64,000 nucleotides of DNA, from the NCBI GenBank assembly GCA_018969615.1, contig JAGWYA010000001.1, positions 54,567 to 118,566 of the forward strand, given 5' to 3'. A model generated the notes under the pieces. It searched no databases. It was not told where the DNA came from and saw only the letters and a program-made list of their open reading frames with translations. This DNA is from Patescibacteria group bacterium (lineage in GTDB: Bacteria > Patescibacteriota > Minisyncoccia > UBA6257 > 02-FULL-45-10c). The stretch's first letter is position 1, and every line of letters starts with the position of its first letter. Below are positions 23,510 through 36,360 of the stretch, piece by piece. The translations under genes were made by a program, and so were the position numbers.

Positions 23510-24151
23510 ATGAGCTCCGCGAAGAAATACTACGCTTATTTCTTTTCCACCGATAAACAAGGGATCTGCGATTCGTGGATCGAGTGCGAAAAGATCGTCT
23601 CGGGAAAGAACGCGCGGTTCCGCGGATTTTCTACGCGCAGTGAAGCGGAGGCCTGGCTGAATGCCGGAGCGAACTATGAACTAAAGCCGAAAAAACAAAG
23701 GGTAAAAACAGAATTGCTTCCGGGGATCTATTTTGATGCCGGAACCGGCAGGGGAGACGGCACCGAGATCAGTGTCACGGATGAAAACGGCGCGAACTTG
23801 CTTCATAAGGTTATGCTGAAGAAAAAGATCAACAAGCATGGCAAGCACCTTCTTACCAAGGGCGAGACCAATAATTACGGCGAACTGCTCGCATGCCAAT
23901 ACGCGCTGAAGCTCGCGCTAAAAAATTTAAAAAAAGGAATTTATCCTGAGCGAAGCCGAAGGATCTTCGGGGACAGCAAGCTTGTGATCGAATACTGGTC
24001 CAAAGGGTTCATTAAGCGCAACGATCTGCCGAAAGCGACCGTGAAGCTTGCCGATGCGGTGGCGAAATTACGAAAAAAATTCGAGGAGGCTGGCGGCCAG
24101 ATCCGCCACATTTCCGGAGACGATAACCCGGCAGACCTGGGATTTCACTAA
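23510..24151 (+). CDS. rnhA: ribonuclease HI with N-terminal hybrid-binding (Cauli_VI-like) domain
   Basis: N-term KKYYAYFFSTDKQGICDSWIECEKIVSGKNARFRGFSTRSEAEAWL, then RNase H catalytic D/E/D residues; terminator 24163-24190. Confidence 0.8.
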   Translation: MSSAKKYYAYFFSTDKQGICDSWIECEKIVSGKNARFRGFSTRSEAEAWLNAGANYELKPKKQRVKTELLPGIYFDAGTGRGDGTEISVTDENGANLLHKVMLKKKINKHGKHLLTKGETNNYGELLACQYALKLALKNLKKGIYPERSRRIFGDSKLVIEYWSKGFIKRNDLPKATVKLADAVAKLRKKFEEAGGQIRHISGDDNPADLGFH

Positions 24152-24317
24152 AAAATAAGGCCGTCCCATGATCATTTAAGGACGGCCTATCTAATAGAAA
24201 GGTTATGTGTTCGGCACGAATTTGATCAGCCGCATAACCTCTAAAGGTATTTGTAGTCTATAAAATACACGGAGAAGTGTCAATAAAAAACTCGCCCAAG
24301 CGGACGAGTGACTCTGG

Positions 24318-24521
24318 TCATTCTTGATTCATAAAAGCACGGATCGGCTCTCCAAAAGCTTTTTCGCCGATGCCGCCGAGCACAAGAAGGATCGCCGCGA
24401 TCCAGTGGACCGTCAAAAGCACGAGTGCCAAACCGGAACAGATCAGCGCGAGCCAATAATGATCACCGGAGAGCGAAAGGACCGCGATCGCGATAAGCGC
24501 AATTCCCGAAATTCTTTCCAT
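24318..24521 (-). CDS. small membrane protein (2 TM, ~67 aa)
   Basis: Start set at MERISG... with RBS GAGGA; terminator hairpin downstream. Confidence 0.4.
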   Translation of the reverse strand: MERISGIALIAIAVLSLSGDHYWLALICSGLALVLLTVHWIAAILLVLGGIGEKAFGEPIRAFMNQE

Positions 24522-24645
24522 CGATATCCTCAAAGTTGTTTTCGCAGGATCTCTTTTGAGTATGGGTCGATAGGTATTCATTGTCAATTTTAAAATAAAA
24601 AATGCCCCCGCTTAGTCTTTCGACTGAGTGGGGGCGTGAGACTCA

Positions 24646-24906
24646 TTATGGATGAGCCTTCTTTGCGAGGTACTCCTTCTCCAACGCCTTGTCTCGGGCT
24701 TTACGCTGGATCTCATCGATCACGAAAACCACCACTACGCATGCGAAAAGCCCAGCGATGATGGTCAAGGTCGTGATCAAATGCGTCCAGAAAATGAACC
24801 AGAGCGCCTGAAGGACGAGCGCTGCGAGTAATACGGCGAGAACCGCACCAACGATCGCTGCTGCAACGACAAAGATCAACATGAAGAACAATCCGATGAT
24901 CTCCAT
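24646..24906 (-). CDS. small membrane protein (~86 aa)
   Basis: RBS AAGGAGG 5 nt before ATG (MEIIGLFF...); 14-bp terminator stem 24608-24640. Confidence 0.5.
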   Translation of the reverse strand: MEIIGLFFMLIFVVAAAIVGAVLAVLLAALVLQALWFIFWTHLITTLTIIAGLFACVVVVFVIDEIQRKARDKALEKEYLAKKAHP

Positions 24907-24999
24907 ACTACCTCCTTTCAATTTAAAATGTACTTAAGCTATAAGATACCAGATTATAGTGATATTGTCAACTTATAGAAACTATGCTATAGTGACTGC

Positions 25000-25360
25000 G
25001 GTAACTCAGATAGCAGCTTTGATCCGCTTCGGCGGATCGGAGAGGAAAGTCCGGACACCATGAGCGGTCCTTGATCGTTCAAAGCGTAGCGGCTAACAGC
25101 CGTCATCAGTAATGAAGAGGTGCGAGCAGTGACGTCTTGATCCGAAAGGAGCAGGAGAGCCTGATCTCAACGTAATCGGCTTAACCCGGCCATAGAGATA
25201 ATAAAGCCGGGGTGAAACGGCAAAATCCTTACAGGGTGCAAGTCCGTGCTTCGATGCAAATCGGAGAGTGACGCAAAGATCCTTTGTGTAAACAGAGGGC
25301 AAGATAAATTGTTATCATTCCGGCTCCGGCCGGAAAACAGAATCCGGCTTATGAGTTACC
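25000..25360 (+). ncRNA. rnpB: RNase P RNA (bacterial type)
   Basis: P4 halves GAGGAAAGTCCGGAC (25041-) and ACAGAATCCGGCTTATG (25338-), 9-bp P1 pairing 25000-25008 with 25352-25360, GGTGAAACGGC and GCAAGTCCGTG conserved blocks. Confidence 0.85.
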
Positions 25361-25365
25361 CGCAC

Positions 25366-25395
25366 AGCCGCCGCAAGGCGGCTTTTGCGTTTTTA
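25366..25395 (+). terminator. rho-independent terminator of rnpB
   Basis: AGCCGCC-GCAA-GGCGGCT hairpin followed by TTTTGCGTTTTT. Confidence 0.75.
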
Positions 25396-25426
25396 TACAA
25401 TAAAAAACAACCTCTTAAAGAGGTTG

Positions 25427-25729
25427 TCATTCGATCCGCGGCAGAGCGATGCTCCAGCCGCATTCATGATTCAAACAGTCCCATTGCTGCAGCTCATGAT
25501 CGGCAGTGAGCTTGACCGACCAGAGCTTGCACACCGGGCACCGGCTCAATGCATGCATTTTTGTGAAAAAATTTCTGCATTTTTCGGTCGCGCAGGCGAT
25601 CCACTCAAGTTCGATATACGCCGCAAGACGGTCAAGGATCTCCCGGTCTTTGAATTGTTCAAAGATCCGTTTTCCGACAATACCACAATGCCGGCAGGAC
25701 AGGGAAGTGGCAAACTGCCGTCTCCGCAT
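25427..25729 (-). CDS. Cys-rich double zinc-ribbon-like protein (100 aa)
   Basis: RBS AGGAGGG before ATG; four Cys pairs (CRHC, CATEKC, CPVC, CLNHEC); hairpin terminator 25400-25428. Confidence 0.55.
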   Translation of the reverse strand: MRRRQFATSLSCRHCGIVGKRIFEQFKDREILDRLAAYIELEWIACATEKCRNFFTKMHALSRCPVCKLWSVKLTADHELQQWDCLNHECGWSIALPRIE

Positions 25730-25812
25730 AATCCCTCCTCTCTAATGGACTGGCTTTATCCTATCAATTTCATCCCTAAAAATACAACAGGCCACCCGAA
25801 GGTGGCCCTTGC

Positions 25813-26046
25813 TTACATCCAGGGGATGTAAGCGGTGAGGTCCTGCTTGAGGACCAGGAACTTCCGGCGCAAGCGCGCGAGGTTCCGATTCTCTTTGATG
25901 CTGAAGAACATCAGTCCCAGTCCGATGACGGCGATGACGACGCCCAGCGGGAAGCTGTAGCGGTTCGTCGCGTAGTCGGACGTCCCCGCGCCCAAGGTGG
26001 TAAGGAAGAACCCGATCCATCCCATTCCCAAGTCGATGTCGATCAT
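25813..26046 (-). CDS. small membrane protein (77 aa)
   Basis: RBS AAGGAG 7 nt before ATG; two hydrophobic helices; terminator GGCCACC-CGAA-GGTGGCC at 25786-25808. Confidence 0.6.
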   Translation of the reverse strand: MIDIDLGMGWIGFFLTTLGAGTSDYATNRYSFPLGVVIAVIGLGLMFFSIKENRNLARLRRKFLVLKQDLTAYIPWM

Positions 26047-26069
26047 ACACTCTCCTTTTTACGGCAATG

Positions 26070-26117
26070 GTTTTGAGAAAAATTGGGCCCCACCGGATTA
26101 AACTCACTCCGGTGGGG
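26070..26117 (-). terminator. intrinsic terminator/attenuator hairpin directly upstream of the 25813-26046 gene
   Basis: CCCCACCGGA-N10-TCCGGTGGGG stem followed on the minus strand by AATTTTTCTC. Confidence 0.55.
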
Positions 26118-26650
26118 CTTGCGTCTTTTCAATGGCCCTTTGCCGACCCTCATCCTTGGGGAAGGTCGTTTTGCCCTTAGGGCGATGTTGGGCAAATCGG
26201 GAGCCCCTGCATGCCGCGTTACGCGCCAAACGGCGCGGTACGCAACGGCGTGCAGGGGGTACGACTCATCATTCACCGTTGGTGGCGGCTTACTCGCGTT
26301 TCACCGCGCGTTGGGGGCGGTGTTTGCCCTTTTACAGGCAAATCGTGGCCCCGCAAATAAGAGACTTCGCTTTCGCTGTCTCTATAGCCAAGGTCCGTGC
26401 TCTCGGTACGTCACATTCACATCCATTTATCAAGATGAGAGCACGGATCATACGATCACACACGGGGCCGCCGTAAGCGTCGTGTCAGCACCATTGGGTG
26501 CCTCCTTTGAGCTCGCTACAGGGTAGCGGACGTCAGGCGCACTCCACGCGCAACAGGCATTCCGTCGGTCGGCCTGCGGGCGGGGAGCGAAGGATGGGCC
26601 CGAACTTCAGGCACATTCTTCGCTTCCCGCTCGCTTTATTTGTTTTAAAA
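26086..26650. ncRNA. candidate large structured RNA / long 5' leader of unknown family
   Basis: ~560 nt GC-rich, only mutually overlapping junk ORFs; 13-bp stem CCCCTGCATGCCG/CGGCGTGCAGGGG; two similar modules GTTTGCCCTT...GGCAAATCG(G/T)GGCCCC at 26166-26210 and 26318-26357; terminator-like hairpins at both ends; flanked by TTGACA-N17-TATCTT (minus, 26661-26689). Confidence 0.4.
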
Positions 26651-26694
26651 GTACCTGATAAAGATAGCATATATTATCAATTCTGTCAATATCC

Positions 26695-26723
26695 TTGGCA
26701 GGGCATCAAAAACCGATTATACT
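26695..26723 (+). promoter_or_regulatory. sigma-70-like promoter TTGGCA-N17-TATACT
   Basis: Hexamers 17 bp apart, 29 nt upstream of the 26753 ATG. Confidence 0.5.
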
Positions 26724-26752
26724 ATCCGCAGTTCTTCACGAGGTGAACACTA

Positions 26753-27031
26753 ATGAGCGAACCATGGATGGTCAAGGTCATTGACGTGATCCACGATGAT
26801 TGCAACCGGCCCATTTGGGTGCGGATCCAGTACATCAAGGAAGGGGAATTACTCCACGATGCCGTATTCGTCCGGGGAAGAGAACAGGCTGCAGTTTTTC
26901 TGGAAAGACGGATCAATGGCTTCATTCCCAAAAACCGATTCGGCAGAATGCGGAAAAGGGCCTTTGCGGTCATAGAACAAGCAAGGCCCCCTGAAGCGAT
27001 CCAGCTGGGTCTTCCGCTCGACTTAGGATAA
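26753..27031 (+). CDS. hypothetical protein (92 aa)
   Basis: RBS GAGGTG; terminator AAGCTCCC-GTTA-TGGGAGCTT-TTTATTTTT at 27038-27066. Confidence 0.5.
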   Translation: MSEPWMVKVIDVIHDDCNRPIWVRIQYIKEGELLHDAVFVRGREQAAVFLERRINGFIPKNRFGRMRKRAFAVIEQARPPEAIQLGLPLDLG

Positions 27032-27118
27032 ACACCAAGCTCCCGTTATGGGAGCTTTTTATTTTTATACGCTCAAGGTATTCTATACAGAGCACCATAC
27101 ATAACTAAGAGGCTAAAA

Positions 27119-27466
27119 ATGAGCAGATTAGTGACAGAAGTTATTGATGATACATTTAGTAACTTAGTTTTAAATTCCCCCTTACCGGTCATTGTTGATT
27201 TCTGGTCACCGGCTTGCGGTCCGTGCATTTCCCTTGCGCCGCTTTTAGAAAAGTATGCAAAGAAAATGCAAGGCAAAATAACTTTTTTGAAATACGAAGT
27301 GAAATGGGGAGATGATCAGCCCATAAGAGCTCAATATGATATCCGTTGCCTGCCAACGGCCATTCTTTTCAAGAACGGCAAGGAAATGAAAAGAGCTTCG
27401 GGAATCGGCTCAGCGGATACCACTATCAATGTCTTGCTCGCTTCATTAGCTCGGCCCCCTTTATAA
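27119..27466 (+). CDS. trxA: thioredoxin
   Basis: CGPC active site (DFWSPACGPC), thioredoxin fold length; RBS AAGAGG; terminator GGCCCCCTTTATAAAGGGGGCT-ATTTT; AT-rich codon usage unlike neighbours. Confidence 0.8.
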   Translation: MSRLVTEVIDDTFSNLVLNSPLPVIVDFWSPACGPCISLAPLLEKYAKKMQGKITFLKYEVKWGDDQPIRAQYDIRCLPTAILFKNGKEMKRASGIGSADTTINVLLASLARPPL

Positions 27467-27524
27467 AGGGGGGCTATTTTATATACGATCCGACTATGAG
27501 ATTGCCCCGTATAAAAACAAGTCA

Positions 27525-27553
27525 TTGACTTTTCCGCTTATTTTTATTATAAT
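27525..27553 (+). promoter_or_regulatory. consensus sigma-70 promoter TTGACT-N17-TATAAT
   Basis: Exact spacing 17; 42 nt upstream of the 27596 ATG. Confidence 0.6.
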
Positions 27554-27595
27554 ATAAACAGTTTTTCGTTAAATTTCAGAGCAAGGAGGCGCGCC

Positions 27596-27916
27596 ATGAT
27601 GCGTATGTCTTCACAGCAGCTCGATGACCAGACGGTTCTGGTCATCGGCTACGACGTGGACGAAGATCCTGACATCGAATTGTGCGCGGTCTTCCGAGCC
27701 CTGGAAACCGAACGCACAGCGCAGCTCATCAAAAGGTACAGCCGCGGTGCAGGAGAAGAGCACCAGCTCGAAATGGACAACTTCCGCGATCTGGATGAAG
27801 AGACGAAGCAACGCTTCGAGAAGGTGATGCCCGGCTTCCATAAAGCCGCGATGCAGGCGTTCAAGTTCGCGCCGTTCGACGACAGCCTTCCGCCGCAAGG
27901 AGAGCTGGACATCTGA
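27596..27916 (+). CDS. acidic hypothetical protein (106 aa)
   Basis: RBS AAGGAGG; terminator AGCCCTCCGATC...GATCGGAGGGCT-TTTTC at 27924-27960. Confidence 0.55.
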   Translation: MMRMSSQQLDDQTVLVIGYDVDEDPDIELCAVFRALETERTAQLIKRYSRGAGEEHQLEMDNFRDLDEETKQRFEKVMPGFHKAAMQAFKFAPFDDSLPPQGELDI

Positions 27917-27960
27917 CCCAAGCCCTCCGATCAATTCAAACGATCGGAGGGCTTTTTCAT

Positions 27961-28014
27961 TGTTTGTCCAATTTATTCTTATCCGATAAGCCGAGGATAA
28001 ATTGGATACAAACA
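27961..28014. repeat. nested inverted repeat
   Basis: TGTTTGTCCAATTTAT ... ATAAATTGGATACAAACA arms enclosing the perfect palindrome CTTATCcGATAAG. Confidence 0.6.
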
Positions 28015-28138
28015 ATAGAACCCCGCTAAGAGCGGGGTGAAGTGTTAACTTCATTTTTTATTCAATAAAAAGACCCACTATGACGCGTCATAGTGGGTTA
28101 TATGCAGGCGATAAAGGAGGCGTGGCTGAGCTTTTACT

Positions 28139-35988: not shown

Positions 35989-36095
35989 TCTCTGTATGAT
36001 CCGCTCGAAAGAGCGGATTTTTTATGAACAAAGAGGGAAGTGAGGCGGTTGAATTTCCGTTTCGATTCGTTTAAACTAGTTTCATTGCCAGATCG

Positions 36096-36166
36096 TCTAA
36101 TGGTAGGACACAGGACTCTGAATCCTGTTATCTTGGTTCGAATCCAAGTCTGGCAGCAAATAAAAA
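36096..36166 (+). tRNA. tRNA-Gln (anticodon CUG)
   Basis: Acceptor TGCCAGA/TCTGGCA, D arm GTCT-AATGGTA-GGAC, anticodon arm CAGGA-CTCTGAA-TCCTG, T arm CTTGG-TTCGAAT-CCAAG, discriminator G; CCA not encoded. Confidence 0.85.
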
Positions 36167-36343
36167 ATCTCTCTGGGCACAGCCGGGGAGATCTTTTATT
36201 TTGTTAGGATTCGAACCAGCCGCACCCCGTATCAGGAAGGCAGGAGCGAAGCGACGTTGGAAACCGAAGGTGTCCAAGACGGGGGTCGGGGTGCGGCGTG
36301 GTTCGAGTGAGCGAGCGGGTCATCTGACCGCGAGTGAAACTTA

Positions 36344-36360
36344 AATCCAAGTCTGGCAGC
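36344..36360 (+). repeat. exact 17-nt duplicate of the tRNA-Gln 3' end (att-like direct repeat)
   Basis: AATCCAAGTCTGGCAGC identical to 36151-36167; preceding CTTAAATCC resembles the T-loop. Confidence 0.8.

What the first reader, a model, noticed from the sequence alone, without database searches (positions are those of the whole stretch)
26086..26650. ~560-nt ORF-free, GC-rich structured stretch between divergent promoters: candidate undescribed large ncRNA or riboswitch-like leader
No plausible ORF occurs between the small membrane protein gene (25813-26046, -) and the 26753 gene (+); the only ORFs mutually overlap on both strands and look like junk. The DNA is highly self-complementary. 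It has a 13-bp stem (26203-26215 with 26247-26259). It has two near-identical modules GTTTGCCCTT-loop-GGCAAATCG(G/T)GGCCCC at 26166-26210 and 26318-26357. It has a 9-bp stem at 26397-26446. On the minus strand a perfect TTGACA-N17-TATCTT promoter (26661-26689) points into the region. The region ends in a 10-bp hairpin plus U-tract (26070-26117) only ~25 nt before the AAGGAG RBS of the small membrane protein. This is the architecture of a transcription-attenuating leader or riboswitch, but about 500 nt long. A plus-strand hairpin plus T-tract at 26582-26645 also allows a plus-oriented RNA. It matches no riboswitch, tmRNA, SRP, 6S or RNase P consensus I can recall.
Basis: seen in the sequence. 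Interest (0 to 1): 0.75.

Follow-up and report, generated by a model that had tools for sequence, protein, structure and literature searches.

The report
Conserved structured leader RNA, CPR bacteria
The ORF-free, hairpin-rich stretch is a real, evolutionarily conserved RNA of about 580 nt, absent from Rfam, transcribed on the minus strand in front of a tiny membrane-protein gene in a small group of ultra-small (Patescibacteria) bacteria, and it most likely controls that gene through a short upstream reading frame and a terminator.

Summary
Window 26071-26654 (minus strand) is a strongly folded, non-coding stretch bounded by a conserved TTGACA-N17-TATCTT promoter and an 11-bp terminator 25 nt before the RBS of a 77-aa membrane protein. 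Using homologues of that protein I found the same element in 8 further Patescibacteria contigs, always on the gene's strand. The shared plan has five parts:
- an extended -10 promoter;
- a long 5' hairpin, P1 (10 of 23 pairs covary);
- an invariant GGAGG followed by the GNRA-type hairpin P2;
- a long-range helix, P3, that closes a three-way junction;
- a CGAUUU tail, then a variable extension of 0-400 nt and usually a terminator.

No Rfam 15 family matches any member. The GGAGG sits 5-7 nt before an AUG/GUG that opens a 12-14-codon frame (MLTxRxRRPHG) lying over the 5' strand of P3. Synonymous differences are enriched in that frame only.

My best reading (about 0.5) is a cis-acting leader of the mgtA/corA type, in which translation of the upstream frame and RNA folding together decide read-through. 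The main rival (about 0.25) is a stand-alone RNA that partners the membrane protein, as OLE does with OapA. The plus-strand reading is not supported. This is a new RNA family with a narrow distribution and untested function.

The parts
26661..26689 (-). Promoter: -35 TTGACA (26684-26689), 17-nt spacer, extended -10 TGCTATCTT (26661-26669). The transcription start is inferred at about 26652-26654.
   Evidence: 10 of 12 matches, with TG extension. TTGACA-N12-TRTGCTA is conserved at the same place in 8 species. The pattern is rare in the window: 4 matches against 0.18 expected, one of them in front of the RNase P RNA gene.
26576..26634 (-). P1: long 5' hairpin, GCGAGCGGGAAGCGAAGAAUGUGCC / GGCCCAUCCUUCGCUCCCCGCCCGC. 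The lower half (GGGAAGCG/CGCUUCCC) is nearly invariant in sequence. The upper half covaries. Two internal positions switch between A.C and A-U.
   Evidence: 23 pairs, 10 with compensatory changes, 90.8% of cells paired, and 0 of 500 shuffles reach the covariation score.
26509..26575 (-). Variable linker with three small hairpins (for example GCGCGUGGAGUGCGC and GCUACCCUGUAGC). It is shared with species B and replaced by other hairpins in E-J.
26501..26505 (-). Invariant single-stranded GGAGG (Shine-Dalgarno-like), in the context AAAGGAGGC.
   Evidence: Invariant in all 8 copies (alignment A7). It lies 5-7 nt before an AUG or GUG in every copy.
26487..26502 (-). P2 hairpin GGCACC-CAAU-GGUGCU. 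In relatives it is GGCAC-GNRA-GUGCU. Its closing G.U pair exists only on the minus strand.
   Evidence: G.U in 7 of 8 copies, and two compensatory pairs in the duplicated copy B2 (GGCGUC/GACGCU).
26456..26494 (-). Candidate upstream ORF (leader peptide): AUG GUG CUG ACA CGA CGC UUA CGG CGG CCC CGU GUG UGA = MVLTRRLRRPRV*. It covers the 5' strand of P3.
   Evidence: 12-14 codons in 6 of 7 species; synonymous versus non-synonymous codon differences in three independent close pairs are 7:6 in this frame, 1:11 and 1:12 in the other two. Between G and H, 5 of 5 differences are synonymous. The stop codon is kept through UAA<->UGA changes.
26347..26469 (-). P3 domain. The long-range helix GGCCCCGU (26462-26469) / GCGGGGCC (26347-26354) encloses helix c (26394-26447; 11-bp stem, 32-nt loop) and helix d (26360-26383; AGAGAC..GAAA..GUCUCU). 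This is the junction domain.
   Evidence: P3 is 98.7% paired and its seventh pair switches A-U <-> G-C; the same P3/b/c/d architecture in E, F, J and in G, H, with helices b and c covarying or replaced. One search gives the stems.
26323..26346 (-). Conserved tail ACGAUUUGCC after P3, running into the hairpin UUUGCC-UGUAAAAG-GGCAAA.
   Evidence: CGAUUU follows P3 in every member..
26119..26322 (-). Variable 3' extension: hairpin CACCGC..GCGGUG (26302-26322); helix e (26204-26259), followed by a second GGGGCU-CCCGAUUUGCCC tail and hairpin (26170-26203); and hairpin 26145-26167.
   Evidence: The CACCGC hairpin is shared with B and G, and covaries in C. The base of helix e is kept in B while its apical part is replaced. 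The extension is 0 nt in H and J and about 400 nt in B and G.
26071..26118 (-). Intrinsic terminator: GCCCCACCGGA-loop-UCCGGUGGGGC (26087-26118, dG -23.7 kcal/mol), then CCAAUUUUUCUCAAAA (26071-26086).
   Evidence: Species B and D keep a hairpin here with compensatory changes and a G.U pair that exists only on this strand. E, F, G and C have unrelated stems in the same position, each followed by a U-tract.
25813..26058 (-). Regulated gene: RBS AAAGGAGAG (26050-26058) and the 77-aa two-helix membrane protein (25813-26046), with a GAGTSD loop, FFSxxENRN and a basic C-terminal tail.
   Evidence: 17 clusters, all from Patescibacteria or metagenomes. No Pfam or NCBIfam match. No promoter-like site lies between the terminator and the RBS.

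Best explanation
Window 26071-26654 (minus strand) is a member of an undescribed family of structured 5' leader RNAs. The family precedes a conserved small membrane-protein gene in a clade of Patescibacteria (CPR bacteria).

What is shown:
- A conserved extended -10 promoter starts a transcript whose first element is the long hairpin P1.
- P1 is followed by an invariant GGAGG, the small hairpin P2, and the long-range helix P3, which closes a three-way-junction domain.
- Next come a CGAUUU tail, a lineage-variable set of extra hairpins and, in most species, a strong intrinsic terminator 20-30 nt before the gene's RBS.
- No promoter-like site was found between the terminator and the gene.

What is inferred: the gene can be expressed only by read-through, so the RNA acts in cis as an attenuator.

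Proposed mechanism (inferred). The GGAGG and the AUG/GUG 5-7 nt downstream drive translation of a 12-14-codon, Arg-rich frame (consensus MLTxRxRRPHG). This frame lies exactly over the 5' strand of P3. A ribosome translating or pausing there keeps P3 from forming. The GGGGCC-containing 3' strand is then free to pair with the GCCCC-containing 5' arm of the next helix and, finally, of the terminator, which would allow read-through. Without a ribosome, P3 and the terminator fold and the transcript ends at about 26075.

This is the logic of leader-peptide attenuators, and of the mgtA/corA leaders in particular. In those leaders a short upstream frame sits inside a three-way junction of a long leader in front of a membrane-protein gene.
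For: Conservation and strand:
- The same promoter/P1/GGAGG-P2/P3/tail plan is found on the gene's strand in species B (L082-L087), E (L098), F (L099), G (L100), H (L101/L102) and J (L107/L194). It is partly present in C (L089) and D (L088).
- A profile made only from E, F, J, G and H hits window 26629-26464 (minus strand) at E = 3.2e-11.

Covariation:
- P1: 10 of 23 pairs are compensatory, and 0 of 500 shuffles reach the score.
- P2/P3: 98% paired, with 4 compensatory pairs.
- Helices b, c and d covary or are replaced while the architecture is kept.

Features that exist only on the minus strand:
- the G.U pair closing P2 in 7 of 8 copies;
- U.G pairs in P3;
- G.U pairs in the terminators of B and D;
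- GNRA loops;
- an A-rich, U-poor composition.

Leader role:
- H and J have no terminator, so there the RNA must be the 5' UTR.
- In A, B, D, E, F and G a terminator of -17 to -27 kcal/mol lies 20-30 nt before the RBS. In the window, the promoter scan finds no site between them.

Upstream frame:
- GGAGG is invariant and a start codon lies 5-7 nt away in 8 of 8 copies. The frame has 12-14 codons in 6 of 7 species.
- The 33 nt from the start codon through the P3 5' strand have no indels.
- Synonymous differences are enriched only in this frame: 7:6 against 1:11 and 1:12 in three independent pairs, and 55/187 against 10/158 and 34/173 over all pairs.

Other:
- No Rfam family matches the window or any homologue.
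- Architectural precedent: the mgtA/corA 5' regions have a three-way junction that holds a regulatory upstream frame, followed by further stem-loops (PMC11552253).
Against: - No conserved antiterminator lies next to the terminator. The best partners of its 5' arm are 80-120 nt upstream and differ between species. The proposed relay of pairings rests on trivial GGGG/CCCC complementarity.
- The U-tract after P3 is short (3-5 U, after a CGA spacer), so P3 itself is at best a weak terminator.
- The peptide is poorly conserved between F and J in its first 8 residues. The conserved RPHG is encoded by the P3 strand, which RNA structure also constrains. In E the frame runs on for 81 codons.
- In C (L089) the RNA has its own terminator and is followed by a second promoter plus P1 in front of the genes. 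That looks like an independent RNA gene.
- The terminators are very stable, which suits a stable RNA product.
- Homologues of the protein in L090 and L092 have short AT-rich leaders without the RNA.
- P1 and helix e pair slightly better on the plus strand.
- There are no expression data, and only about 8 distinct sequences.
Confidence: 0.5

Rival explanations
1. Stand-alone structured non-coding RNA. It would end at the terminator, accumulate as a stable RNA of about 580 nt, and work together with the adjacent membrane protein. For example, the protein's basic cytoplasmic tail could tether it to the membrane, as OapA tethers OLE RNA.
For: - It has its own strong promoter, of the same type as the one in front of the RNase P RNA gene, and a very stable terminator.
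- In C (L089) the RNA has its own terminator and the genes have a separate promoter plus P1.
- It has a multi-helix core with GNRA loops, variable-length peripheral hairpins and an A-rich composition, as in known large structured RNAs.
- It is invariably next to a membrane protein with a conserved basic tail.
- Precedent: oapA is the most common immediate downstream neighbour of ole. OapA has a conserved cluster of positive charges on its cytoplasmic face and localises the RNA to the membrane (PMC12265935).
Against: - In H and J no terminator separates the RNA from the gene.
- In six species the gene has no recognisable promoter of its own, so the RNA is at least also a leader.
- The protein family is wider than the RNA: L090 and L092 lack it. 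The protein therefore does not need the RNA.
- The RNA is evolving by duplication and deletion of modules, for example the 144-nt difference between the window and species B.
- The invariant GGAGG plus start codon, and the frame-specific excess of synonymous differences, point to translation.
Confidence: 0.25
2. Hairpin-rich spacer with no function of its own. On this view it is accumulated, duplicated and decayed copies of a terminator-like unit (helix-GGGGCC-CGAUUUU) between two divergent promoters, conserved only because the species are close.
For: - The unit recurs three times in the window: P3 plus tail, helix e plus tail, and the terminator.
- The profile aligns the P3-3'-plus-tail consensus to the terminator.
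- The window differs from species B by a 144-nt repeat-mediated deletion and a replaced segment.
- The extension ranges from 0 to 400 nt.
Against: - The core of about 290 nt is kept in lineages whose membrane proteins are only 40-50% identical.
- Helices show compensatory changes.
- The GGAGG/P2/P3 sequence is invariant and the 33-nt linker has no indels.
- Between the window and species B, 26359-26811 is 90% identical, against 79% for the adjacent stretch 25597-26200 that holds the coding genes.
Confidence: 0.1
3. The functional RNA is on the plus strand. It would be an antisense RNA that starts near 26086 and ends at the 26576-26634 hairpin plus T-tract, perhaps repressing the membrane-protein mRNA as in a type I toxin-antitoxin pair.
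For: - In the window the plus strand folds better (-283 against -259 kcal/mol).
- P1 has three G.U pairs on the plus strand that are A.C mismatches on the minus strand. Across species, two P1 positions switch between A-U and A.C on the minus strand, which means they are always paired on the plus strand.
- The two stem SNPs in the 99.6% identical contig L081 keep helix e fully paired only on the plus strand.
- T-rich sequence follows the plus-strand hairpin in A, B, F and J.
Against: - No plus-strand promoter was found in the window.
- The T-tract is absent in C and E and displaced in G and H.
- In species B the minus strand has the stronger z-score (-12.3 against -6.9).
- The lower plus-strand energies follow from the U-richer composition of that strand.
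- The P2, P3 and terminator wobble pairs, the GNRA loops, and the conserved promoter, terminator, SD and gene orientation all fit the minus strand only.
- The protein is a syntenic core-genome gene with two helices and 68-78 aa, not a typical type I toxin.
Confidence: 0.05
4. The region encodes a protein missed by the ORF listing, or is a decayed gene.
For: ORFs of 147 and 114 aa span it on the plus strand. A gene caller called a 167-aa ORF on the homologous contig.
Against: - No Pfam hit for any of the six ORFs.
- The only database relative is the translation of the same conserved DNA: 59% identity over 38% of the query, with frame lost outside that part.
- The alignment with species B has indels of 1, 2, 7, 9, 44 and 144 nt.
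- The ORFs are not kept in E-J.
Confidence: 0.02

Closest known systems
mgtA / corA 5' leader RNAs of Enterobacteria (with the upstream frames mgtL / corL)
   Same: - A long structured leader in front of a membrane-protein gene.
- A three-way junction in the 5' part, followed by further stem-loops.
- A short upstream frame that lies inside the junction, with its SD in a stem.
- Mutually exclusive folds and translation of the frame decide premature termination (PMC11552253).
   Different: - No sequence or structure homology: the Rfam scans found nothing.
- Termination here would be intrinsic (hairpin plus U-tract), not Rho-dependent.
- The peptide is Arg-rich (RRPHG), not Pro/acidic-rich.
- The leader is 350-800 nt rather than about 260 nt.
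- The regulated protein is a 70-aa protein of unknown function, not a Mg2+ transporter.
- The signal sensed is unknown.
Classical leader-peptide transcription attenuators (trp, his, pyrBI)
   Same: - Promoter, SD plus short frame, alternative GC-rich helices, intrinsic terminator just before the RBS.
- The frame overlaps the first strand of the first helix.
- The peptide is rich in one amino acid: Arg takes 3-5 of 12-14 codons.
   Different: - The helix strands are 110-130 nt apart and enclose a conserved folded domain.
- No compact 2:3 antiterminator is visible.
- The regulated gene is not an amino-acid or nucleotide biosynthesis gene.
OLE RNA with OapA (Bacillota)
   Same: A large, ornate RNA whose immediate downstream neighbour encodes a small membrane protein with conserved positive charges on the cytoplasmic side (PMC12265935).
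   Different: - No match to the OLE model or any other Rfam model.
- OapA has four transmembrane helices (PMC11332333); this protein has two and is unrelated.
- The RNA here is absent from part of the protein family.
- It carries a likely translated frame and is the 5' UTR in two species.
Riboswitches with terminator expression platforms
   Same: A conserved structured domain, then an intrinsic terminator, then the RBS, on the strand of the regulated gene.
   Different: - No known aptamer class matches.
- The distance between the conserved core and the terminator varies from 0 to 400 nt.
- Two members lack a terminator.
- No ligand can be inferred from a gene of unknown function.
Type I toxin-antitoxin loci (hok/sok-like long structured 5' UTRs)
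   Same: A small hydrophobic protein behind a long, highly folded leader that holds an upstream frame. Complementarity exists between the 5' end and the coding region (10 nt).
   Different: - The gene is a syntenic core gene next to the RNase P RNA, DHH and Obg genes in all species.
- The protein has two helices and 68-78 aa.
- No antisense promoter was found.
- The 5'-end/coding-region complementarity is absent in E and F.

Membership tests
Any Rfam 15 family (including OLE, GOLLD, ROOL, HEARO, raiA, 6S, SRP, tmRNA, RNase P, group I/II introns, riboswitches, Mg sensor) | Covariance-model score at or above the family's gathering score | tested here: not met
   Window: only a tRNA, at 36086, reaches a gathering score. 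At E<=10, region 25700-27000 gives only miRNA/sRNA noise of 15-21 bits. Homologous loci: nothing in the element at gathering score or at E<=1.
tRNA / tmRNA | Cloverleaf, or a tRNA-like domain with a tag reading frame | tested here: not met
   ARAGORN finds nothing in 24000-28000.
Leader-peptide attenuator (including the mgtA/corA type) | A short translatable frame with an SD inside the leader | tested here: met
   Invariant GGAGG, with AUG or GUG 5-7 nt downstream in 8 of 8 copies. The frame has 12-14 codons in 6 of 7 species. Synonymous differences are enriched in this frame only. Translation itself is not demonstrated.
Leader-peptide attenuator (including the mgtA/corA type) | The frame overlaps one strand of a helix whose formation is coupled to termination | tested here: inconclusive
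   The frame covers the P3 5' strand (26462-26469) and stops 0-12 nt after it. Coupling of P3 to the terminator is only inferred.
Leader-peptide attenuator (including the mgtA/corA type) | Mutually exclusive terminator and antiterminator structures | tested here: inconclusive
   No conserved adjacent antiterminator. The best partners of the terminator 5' arm are the GGGGC strands of the preceding module (-13 to -16 kcal/mol, against -23 to -27 for the terminator).
Leader-peptide attenuator (including the mgtA/corA type) | A terminator between the leader and the regulated gene, with no intervening promoter | tested here: met
   Met in A, B, D, E, F and G. Not met in H and J, which have no terminator, nor in C, which has a second promoter.
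Riboswitch | A ligand-binding aptamer that binds a metabolite | not testable with these tools
   Needs in-line probing or binding assays. No known aptamer class matches.
OLE-like membrane ribonucleoprotein | Homology of the RNA to OLE and of the protein to OapA | tested here: not met
   No Rfam hit. The protein has no Pfam or NCBIfam family and has two helices, not four (PMC11332333).
OLE-like membrane ribonucleoprotein | Physical binding of the RNA by the neighbouring membrane protein | not testable with these tools
   Only adjacency and a conserved basic tail are seen.
Intrinsic terminator (26087-26118 plus U-tract) | A GC-rich hairpin directly followed by a U-tract on the transcribed strand, with structure conserved but sequence not | tested here: met
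   An 11-bp perfect stem, dG -23.7 kcal/mol, followed by CCAAUUUUUCUC. Seven species have unrelated stems plus U-tracts in the same position. A 4-nt spacer lies before the U-run.

The most novel reading that the evidence does not exclude
This would be a new class of large, multi-domain structured RNA specific to a clade of Patescibacteria, not just a leader. It would accumulate as a terminated 0.35-0.8-kb RNA and form a membrane-associated ribonucleoprotein with the conserved two-helix protein encoded immediately downstream. That would make it an independent, non-homologous counterpart of the OLE-OapA particle in ultra-small, host-dependent bacteria. The short frame might make it a dual-function RNA.
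Probability: 0.2. Interest if true: 0.8.

Novelty: new variant of a known kind. Interest (0 to 1): 0.6.

Why it matters
Almost nothing is known about RNA-based regulation in Patescibacteria. These bacteria have tiny genomes, few transcription factors and very short intergenic regions, so a conserved non-coding element of 0.35-0.9 kb is costly and conspicuous.

If the leader model is right, this is the first candidate attenuator from this phylum that depends on an upstream reading frame, and it shows that ribosome-coupled control exists there. It would also mark the 70-aa GAGTSD membrane protein as a tightly regulated product worth studying.

If the stand-alone reading is right, it adds a new large structured RNA class with a dedicated membrane partner.

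Either way, the family gives a defined target for covariance-model searches, metatranscriptome mapping and in vitro assays: conserved promoter, P1, GGAGG-P2, P3 junction and CGAUUU tail.

Tried and rejected
1. Known RNA families. Rfam at gathering score and at permissive E-values, on the window and on the homologous loci, gave no match in the element. ARAGORN found nothing.
2. Phage or plasmid origin. blastn against phages and plasmids found nothing. A P3-pattern scan of viral contigs gave 3 unrelated hits.
3. Synteny through Obg. Eighty Obg loci from other Patescibacteria (58-75% identity) hold no homologue of the region by blastn or nhmmer, with either the single sequence or the profile. The family is therefore narrow.
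4. The divergent 92-aa gene is an orphan and was useless for comparison.
5. Protein-coding reading: rejected.
6. Metagenome scan with promoter plus P1 5' arm. Of 120 stretches, 118 were chance matches and only L107 = L194 was real.
7. Long-range helix CCCGGAA/UUCCGGG suggested by RNAalifold: not consistent in F, G and H, so dropped.
8. Alternative pairing of the P1 3' arm with the CCCGGAAGCG repeat in the linker: present in E, F, G and J only, so not adopted.
9. Strand choice from folding energy. It is inconsistent between species and driven by composition, so it was not used.
10. A full-length covariance model was not built. The core exceeds the practical size for calibration, and the MAFFT alignment of the junction between subgroups is unreliable.
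11. The 10-nt complementarity between the P1 5' arm and the coding region is not conserved in E and F. It is left as unexplained.
Full report
**1. The observation**

I read 25700-27000, listed ORFs and scanned for repeats, promoters and terminators.
- 13-nt stem, 26204-26216 / 26246-26258.
- Perfect 11-bp stems, 26394-26404 / 26437-26447 and 26087-26097 / 26108-26118.
- 29-nt arms, 26576-26604 / 26606-26634.
- The duplicated TTTGCCCTT...GGCAAATCG unit.
- Minus-strand promoter TTGACA-17-TATCTT with a TG extension, 26689-26661.
- On the minus strand after the last hairpin, CCAAUUUUUCUC and then AAAGGAGAG-N4-AUG of the 77-aa gene.

The 601-nt stretch folds far better than dinucleotide shuffles on both strands (z = -9.1 minus, -12.0 plus). 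In a scan of the whole window in 200-nt windows (mean z -0.5, sd 1.5), five of the seven windows across 26001-26700 score -3 to -5.6.

Only overlapping junk ORFs cross the region, and none has a Pfam hit.

**2. Not a known RNA, phage or plasmid sequence**

Rfam 15 at gathering score finds only a tRNA, at 36086. At E<=10 the region gives only 15-21-bit noise. ARAGORN finds nothing. blastn against phage and plasmid collections finds nothing.

**3. Organism and relatives**

The neighbouring Obg gene places the window in Patescibacteria (Parcubacteria/Paceibacterota-like; best 75% identity). None of the 80 Obg loci fetched holds a relative of the region. The divergent 92-aa gene is an orphan.

A protein search with the 147-aa junk ORF returned one spurious gene call (P0002). 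It lies on a syntenic contig from a sister species, 'B' (L082).

The 77-aa membrane protein has a small family: 17 clusters, all from Patescibacteria or metagenomes. Its members share a GAGTSD loop, FFSFEENRN and a basic tail. They have no Pfam or NCBIfam match.

I fetched the contigs of its members and made one metagenome pattern scan. Together these gave the upstream regions of eight further lineages:
- B (L082-L087)
- C (L089)
- D (L088; only 120 nt upstream)
- E (L098)
- F (L099)
- G (L100)
- H (L101/L102)
- J (L107 = L194)

**4. A conserved RNA on the minus strand**

All these regions share one plan on the strand of the membrane gene, which is the window's minus strand.
- Promoter TTGACA-N12-TRTGCTA(TnnT).
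- About 30 A-rich nt.
- P1, a hairpin of about 25 bp (CCGGGAAGCGA...UCGCUUCCCGG).
- A variable linker.
- Single-stranded (A/U)GGAGGC.
- P2, GGCAC-(GNRA-like loop)-GUGCU.
- A 17-nt linker of fixed length.
- P3, GGCCCCACGG...CCGUGGGGCC, enclosing 110-130 nt that fold into helices b, c and d (d carries a GNRA loop).
- The tail CGAUUU(U)CC.
- An extension of 0 nt (H, J), about 150-200 nt (window, E, F) or about 400 nt (B, G).
- A strong hairpin plus UUUUUCU(C/A)AAA in the window, B, D, E, F and G.
- The RBS.

A profile built from E, F, J, G and H alone finds window 26629-26464 (minus) at E = 3.2e-11. No Rfam family matches any of these loci inside the element.

**5. Covariation**

- P1: 23 pairs, 10 with compensatory changes, 90.8% of cells paired. 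No shuffle of 500 reaches the score, and slid controls give 30-53% paired. Its lower half is invariant in sequence.
- P2 and P3: I counted these on a mini-construct in which I replaced the internal domain with an AAAA linker. They are 98% paired with 4 compensatory pairs. Examples are GGCACC/GGUGCU against GGCGUC/GACGCU in the duplicated copy of species B, and A-U<->G-C at the seventh pair of P3. Most of P3 never varies, which says nothing either way about the structure.
- Junction: it has the same layout in E/F/J and in G/H. Helix b is GCUUG/CAAGC in F and J, and CUCG/CGAG in G and H. Helix c1 is GCG/CGC, GGCAA/UUGCC or GACA/UGUC. The apical part of c is wholly replaced between G and H.
- Terminators: the stems are unrelated in sequence, and each is followed by a U-tract.

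The sample is small, about 8 distinct sequences. P1 is well supported. The rest is supported but not statistically secure.

**6. Strand**

Several features fit only the minus strand:
- the conserved promoter, terminator and gene orientation;
- the G.U pair closing P2 (7 of 8 copies);
- U.G pairs in P3;
- G.U pairs in the terminators of B and D;
- GNRA loops;
- the A-rich, U-poor composition.

Folding energy does not decide the matter. The plus strand is lower in four of seven species, because it is the U-richer strand.

Two things remain unexplained. In P1, two positions switch between A-U and A.C on the minus strand, which means they are always paired on the plus strand. And the two stem SNPs of a 99.6% identical contig (L081) keep helix e fully paired only on the plus strand.

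The promoter scan of the window found no plus-strand promoter in the region. The T-tract after P1 on the plus strand is not conserved.

**7. How the window version arose**

Species B has a 908-nt spacer against 706 nt here. It holds two tandem copies of the GGAGG-P2-P3 unit. The window lacks exactly the 144 nt between the direct repeats AAGAGAnTTCGCTTTCGCTGT, so it joins the 5' part of copy 1 to the 3' part of copy 2.

The terminator itself aligns to the P3-3'-plus-tail consensus. The RNA therefore grows and shrinks by duplication of a helix-GGGGCC-CGAUUU unit.

**8. A probable upstream reading frame**

In all 8 copies the invariant GGAGG lies 5-7 nt before an AUG or GUG. The frame has 12-14 codons in six of seven species, 22 in copy B2 and 81 in E. 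Examples of the peptides:
- MVLTRRLRRPRV (window)
- MLTQRQRRPHGRS (G)
- MLTKRILRPHGNAR (J)

It runs over the P3 5' strand and stops 0-12 nt later.

The 33 nt from the start codon through the P3 5' strand have no indels. Synonymous versus non-synonymous codon differences:

| Comparison | This frame | Frame +1 | Frame +2 |
|---|---|---|---|
| Three independent close pairs (A-B, G-H, F-J) | 7:6 | 1:11 | 1:12 |
| All pairs (synonymous / all differing codons) | 55/187 | 10/158 | 34/173 |
| G versus H | 5:0 | 0:5 | 0:5 |

The stop codon is kept through UAA<->UGA changes in two lineages.

Caveats: F and J differ at 5 of the first 8 residues. The conserved RPHG is encoded by a strand that RNA structure also constrains.

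**9. Mechanism**

Shown: the architecture, the conservation, the covariation, and the absence of a promoter-like site between terminator and RBS in the window.

Inferred: the gene is reached only by read-through, so the element is a cis-acting attenuator. In H and J, which lack a terminator, it must be the 5' UTR.

My preferred model is that occupancy of the upstream frame by a ribosome prevents P3 from forming and so shifts the downstream GGGGC/GCCCC pairings away from the terminator.

Weak points:
- No compact, conserved antiterminator exists.
- The U-tracts after P3 are short.
- In C the RNA has its own terminator, followed by a second promoter plus P1.
- Protein homologues in L090 and L092 lack the RNA.

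The closest precedent is the mgtA/corA leader type. There a three-way junction contains a regulatory upstream frame, is followed by more stem-loops, and sits in front of a membrane-protein gene (PMC11552253). There is no homology, and termination there is Rho-dependent.

**10. Rivals**

- A stand-alone RNA that partners the membrane protein, as OLE does with OapA (PMC12265935). This fits the strong promoter and terminator, the arrangement in species C and the ornate fold. It is weakened by H and J, by the protein family being wider than the RNA, and by the translated-looking frame.
- Functionless terminator debris.
- A plus-strand antisense RNA.
- A missed protein gene.

The last three are each unlikely, for the reasons given in the rival entries.

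**11. Verdict**

This is a real, conserved, undescribed structured RNA family with a narrow phylogenetic range. It is most likely a leader/attenuator with a short upstream frame. Its function and signal are unknown.

Confidence that it is a conserved minus-strand structured RNA is about 0.9. Confidence that it acts in cis as described is about 0.5.

Noticed in passing
window 24998-25367 (+): A bacterial type A RNase P RNA that the gathering-score Rfam scan misses: 86.2 bits against a cut-off of 100, E = 3e-26. A promoter-like site TTGTCA-N12-TATGCTA lies at 24965-24989 and a terminator at 25366-25383. The same gene sits in the same place, between the membrane-protein gene and the Cauli_VI/DHH genes, in L092 3259-3628 (102 bits).
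   Followed up: partly
window 36158-36360: After tRNA-Gln (36086-36157) and its terminator come three odd features: an inverted copy of the tRNA T-arm (GGATTCGAACCA, 36207-36218), an 11-bp stem (36219-36229 / 36287-36297), and a direct repeat of the tRNA 3' end (AATCCAAGTCTGGCAGC, about 36343-36360). ARAGORN and Rfam call only the one tRNA. This could be an integration scar, a tRNA fragment or an interrupted tRNA.
   Followed up: partly
window 27917-28138: This intergenic region has the next-strongest folding signal of the window on both strands (z about -9). It holds perfect 13-nt inverted repeats at 27920-27932 / 27942-27954 (AAGCCCTCCGATC...GATCGGAGGGCTT, terminator-like) and at 28073-28098 (ACCCACTATGACG|CGTCATAGTGGGT, with no spacer).
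   Followed up: no
window 25946-25955 versus 26622-26631: The 5' arm of P1 (AGCGGGAAGC) is 10 of 10 complementary to the membrane-protein mRNA at the conserved S-F-P-L codons (AGC UUC CCG CU). Eight of these nt are kept in D, G and H. The match is absent in E and F. It could be coincidence or a long-range contact between the 5' UTR and the coding region.
   Followed up: partly
window 25813-26046 (-), and L083, L088-L102, L107: A small, uncharacterised protein family restricted to Patescibacteria: 68-78 aa, two predicted membrane helices, a GAGTSD..NRYSFPLG loop, FFSFEENRN and an Arg/Lys-rich C-terminal tail. There are 17 clusters and no Pfam or NCBIfam model. The gene is always near the RNase P RNA, Cauli_VI-domain and DHH genes. 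G and H carry an extra 76-aa membrane ORF in front of it, and C has two tandem small ORFs.
   Followed up: partly
window 26187-26189 and 26211-26212, versus L081: A 1.4-kb Logan contig (SRR32006840) is 99.6% identical to the window. All 5 differences fall inside the RNA: three in a hairpin loop and two adjacent ones in the stem of helix e. The stem differences move a mismatch on the minus strand but keep full pairing on the plus strand. They lie near the contig end, so assembly error is possible.
   Followed up: partly
window 25427-25729 (-): A 100-aa ORF that looks like a Cys-rich Zn-ribbon protein follows the membrane-protein gene, separated from it by a terminator-like hairpin at 25789-25808. 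ORFs of similar size (100-112 aa) follow the membrane gene in B, D and C, and a Cys-rich ORF follows it in J. There is no family match beyond a weak HypA-like hit (E = 0.007).
   Followed up: no
L089 1-518: In species C the order of the modules is different. The tail and extension of the RNA come first, with their own terminator (CCCCGAUGGA..UCCACCGGGG plus U7). Then comes a second copy of the promoter and P1 hairpin, directly in front of the membrane genes. The contig ends inside the RNA, so its 5' part is unseen.
   Followed up: partly
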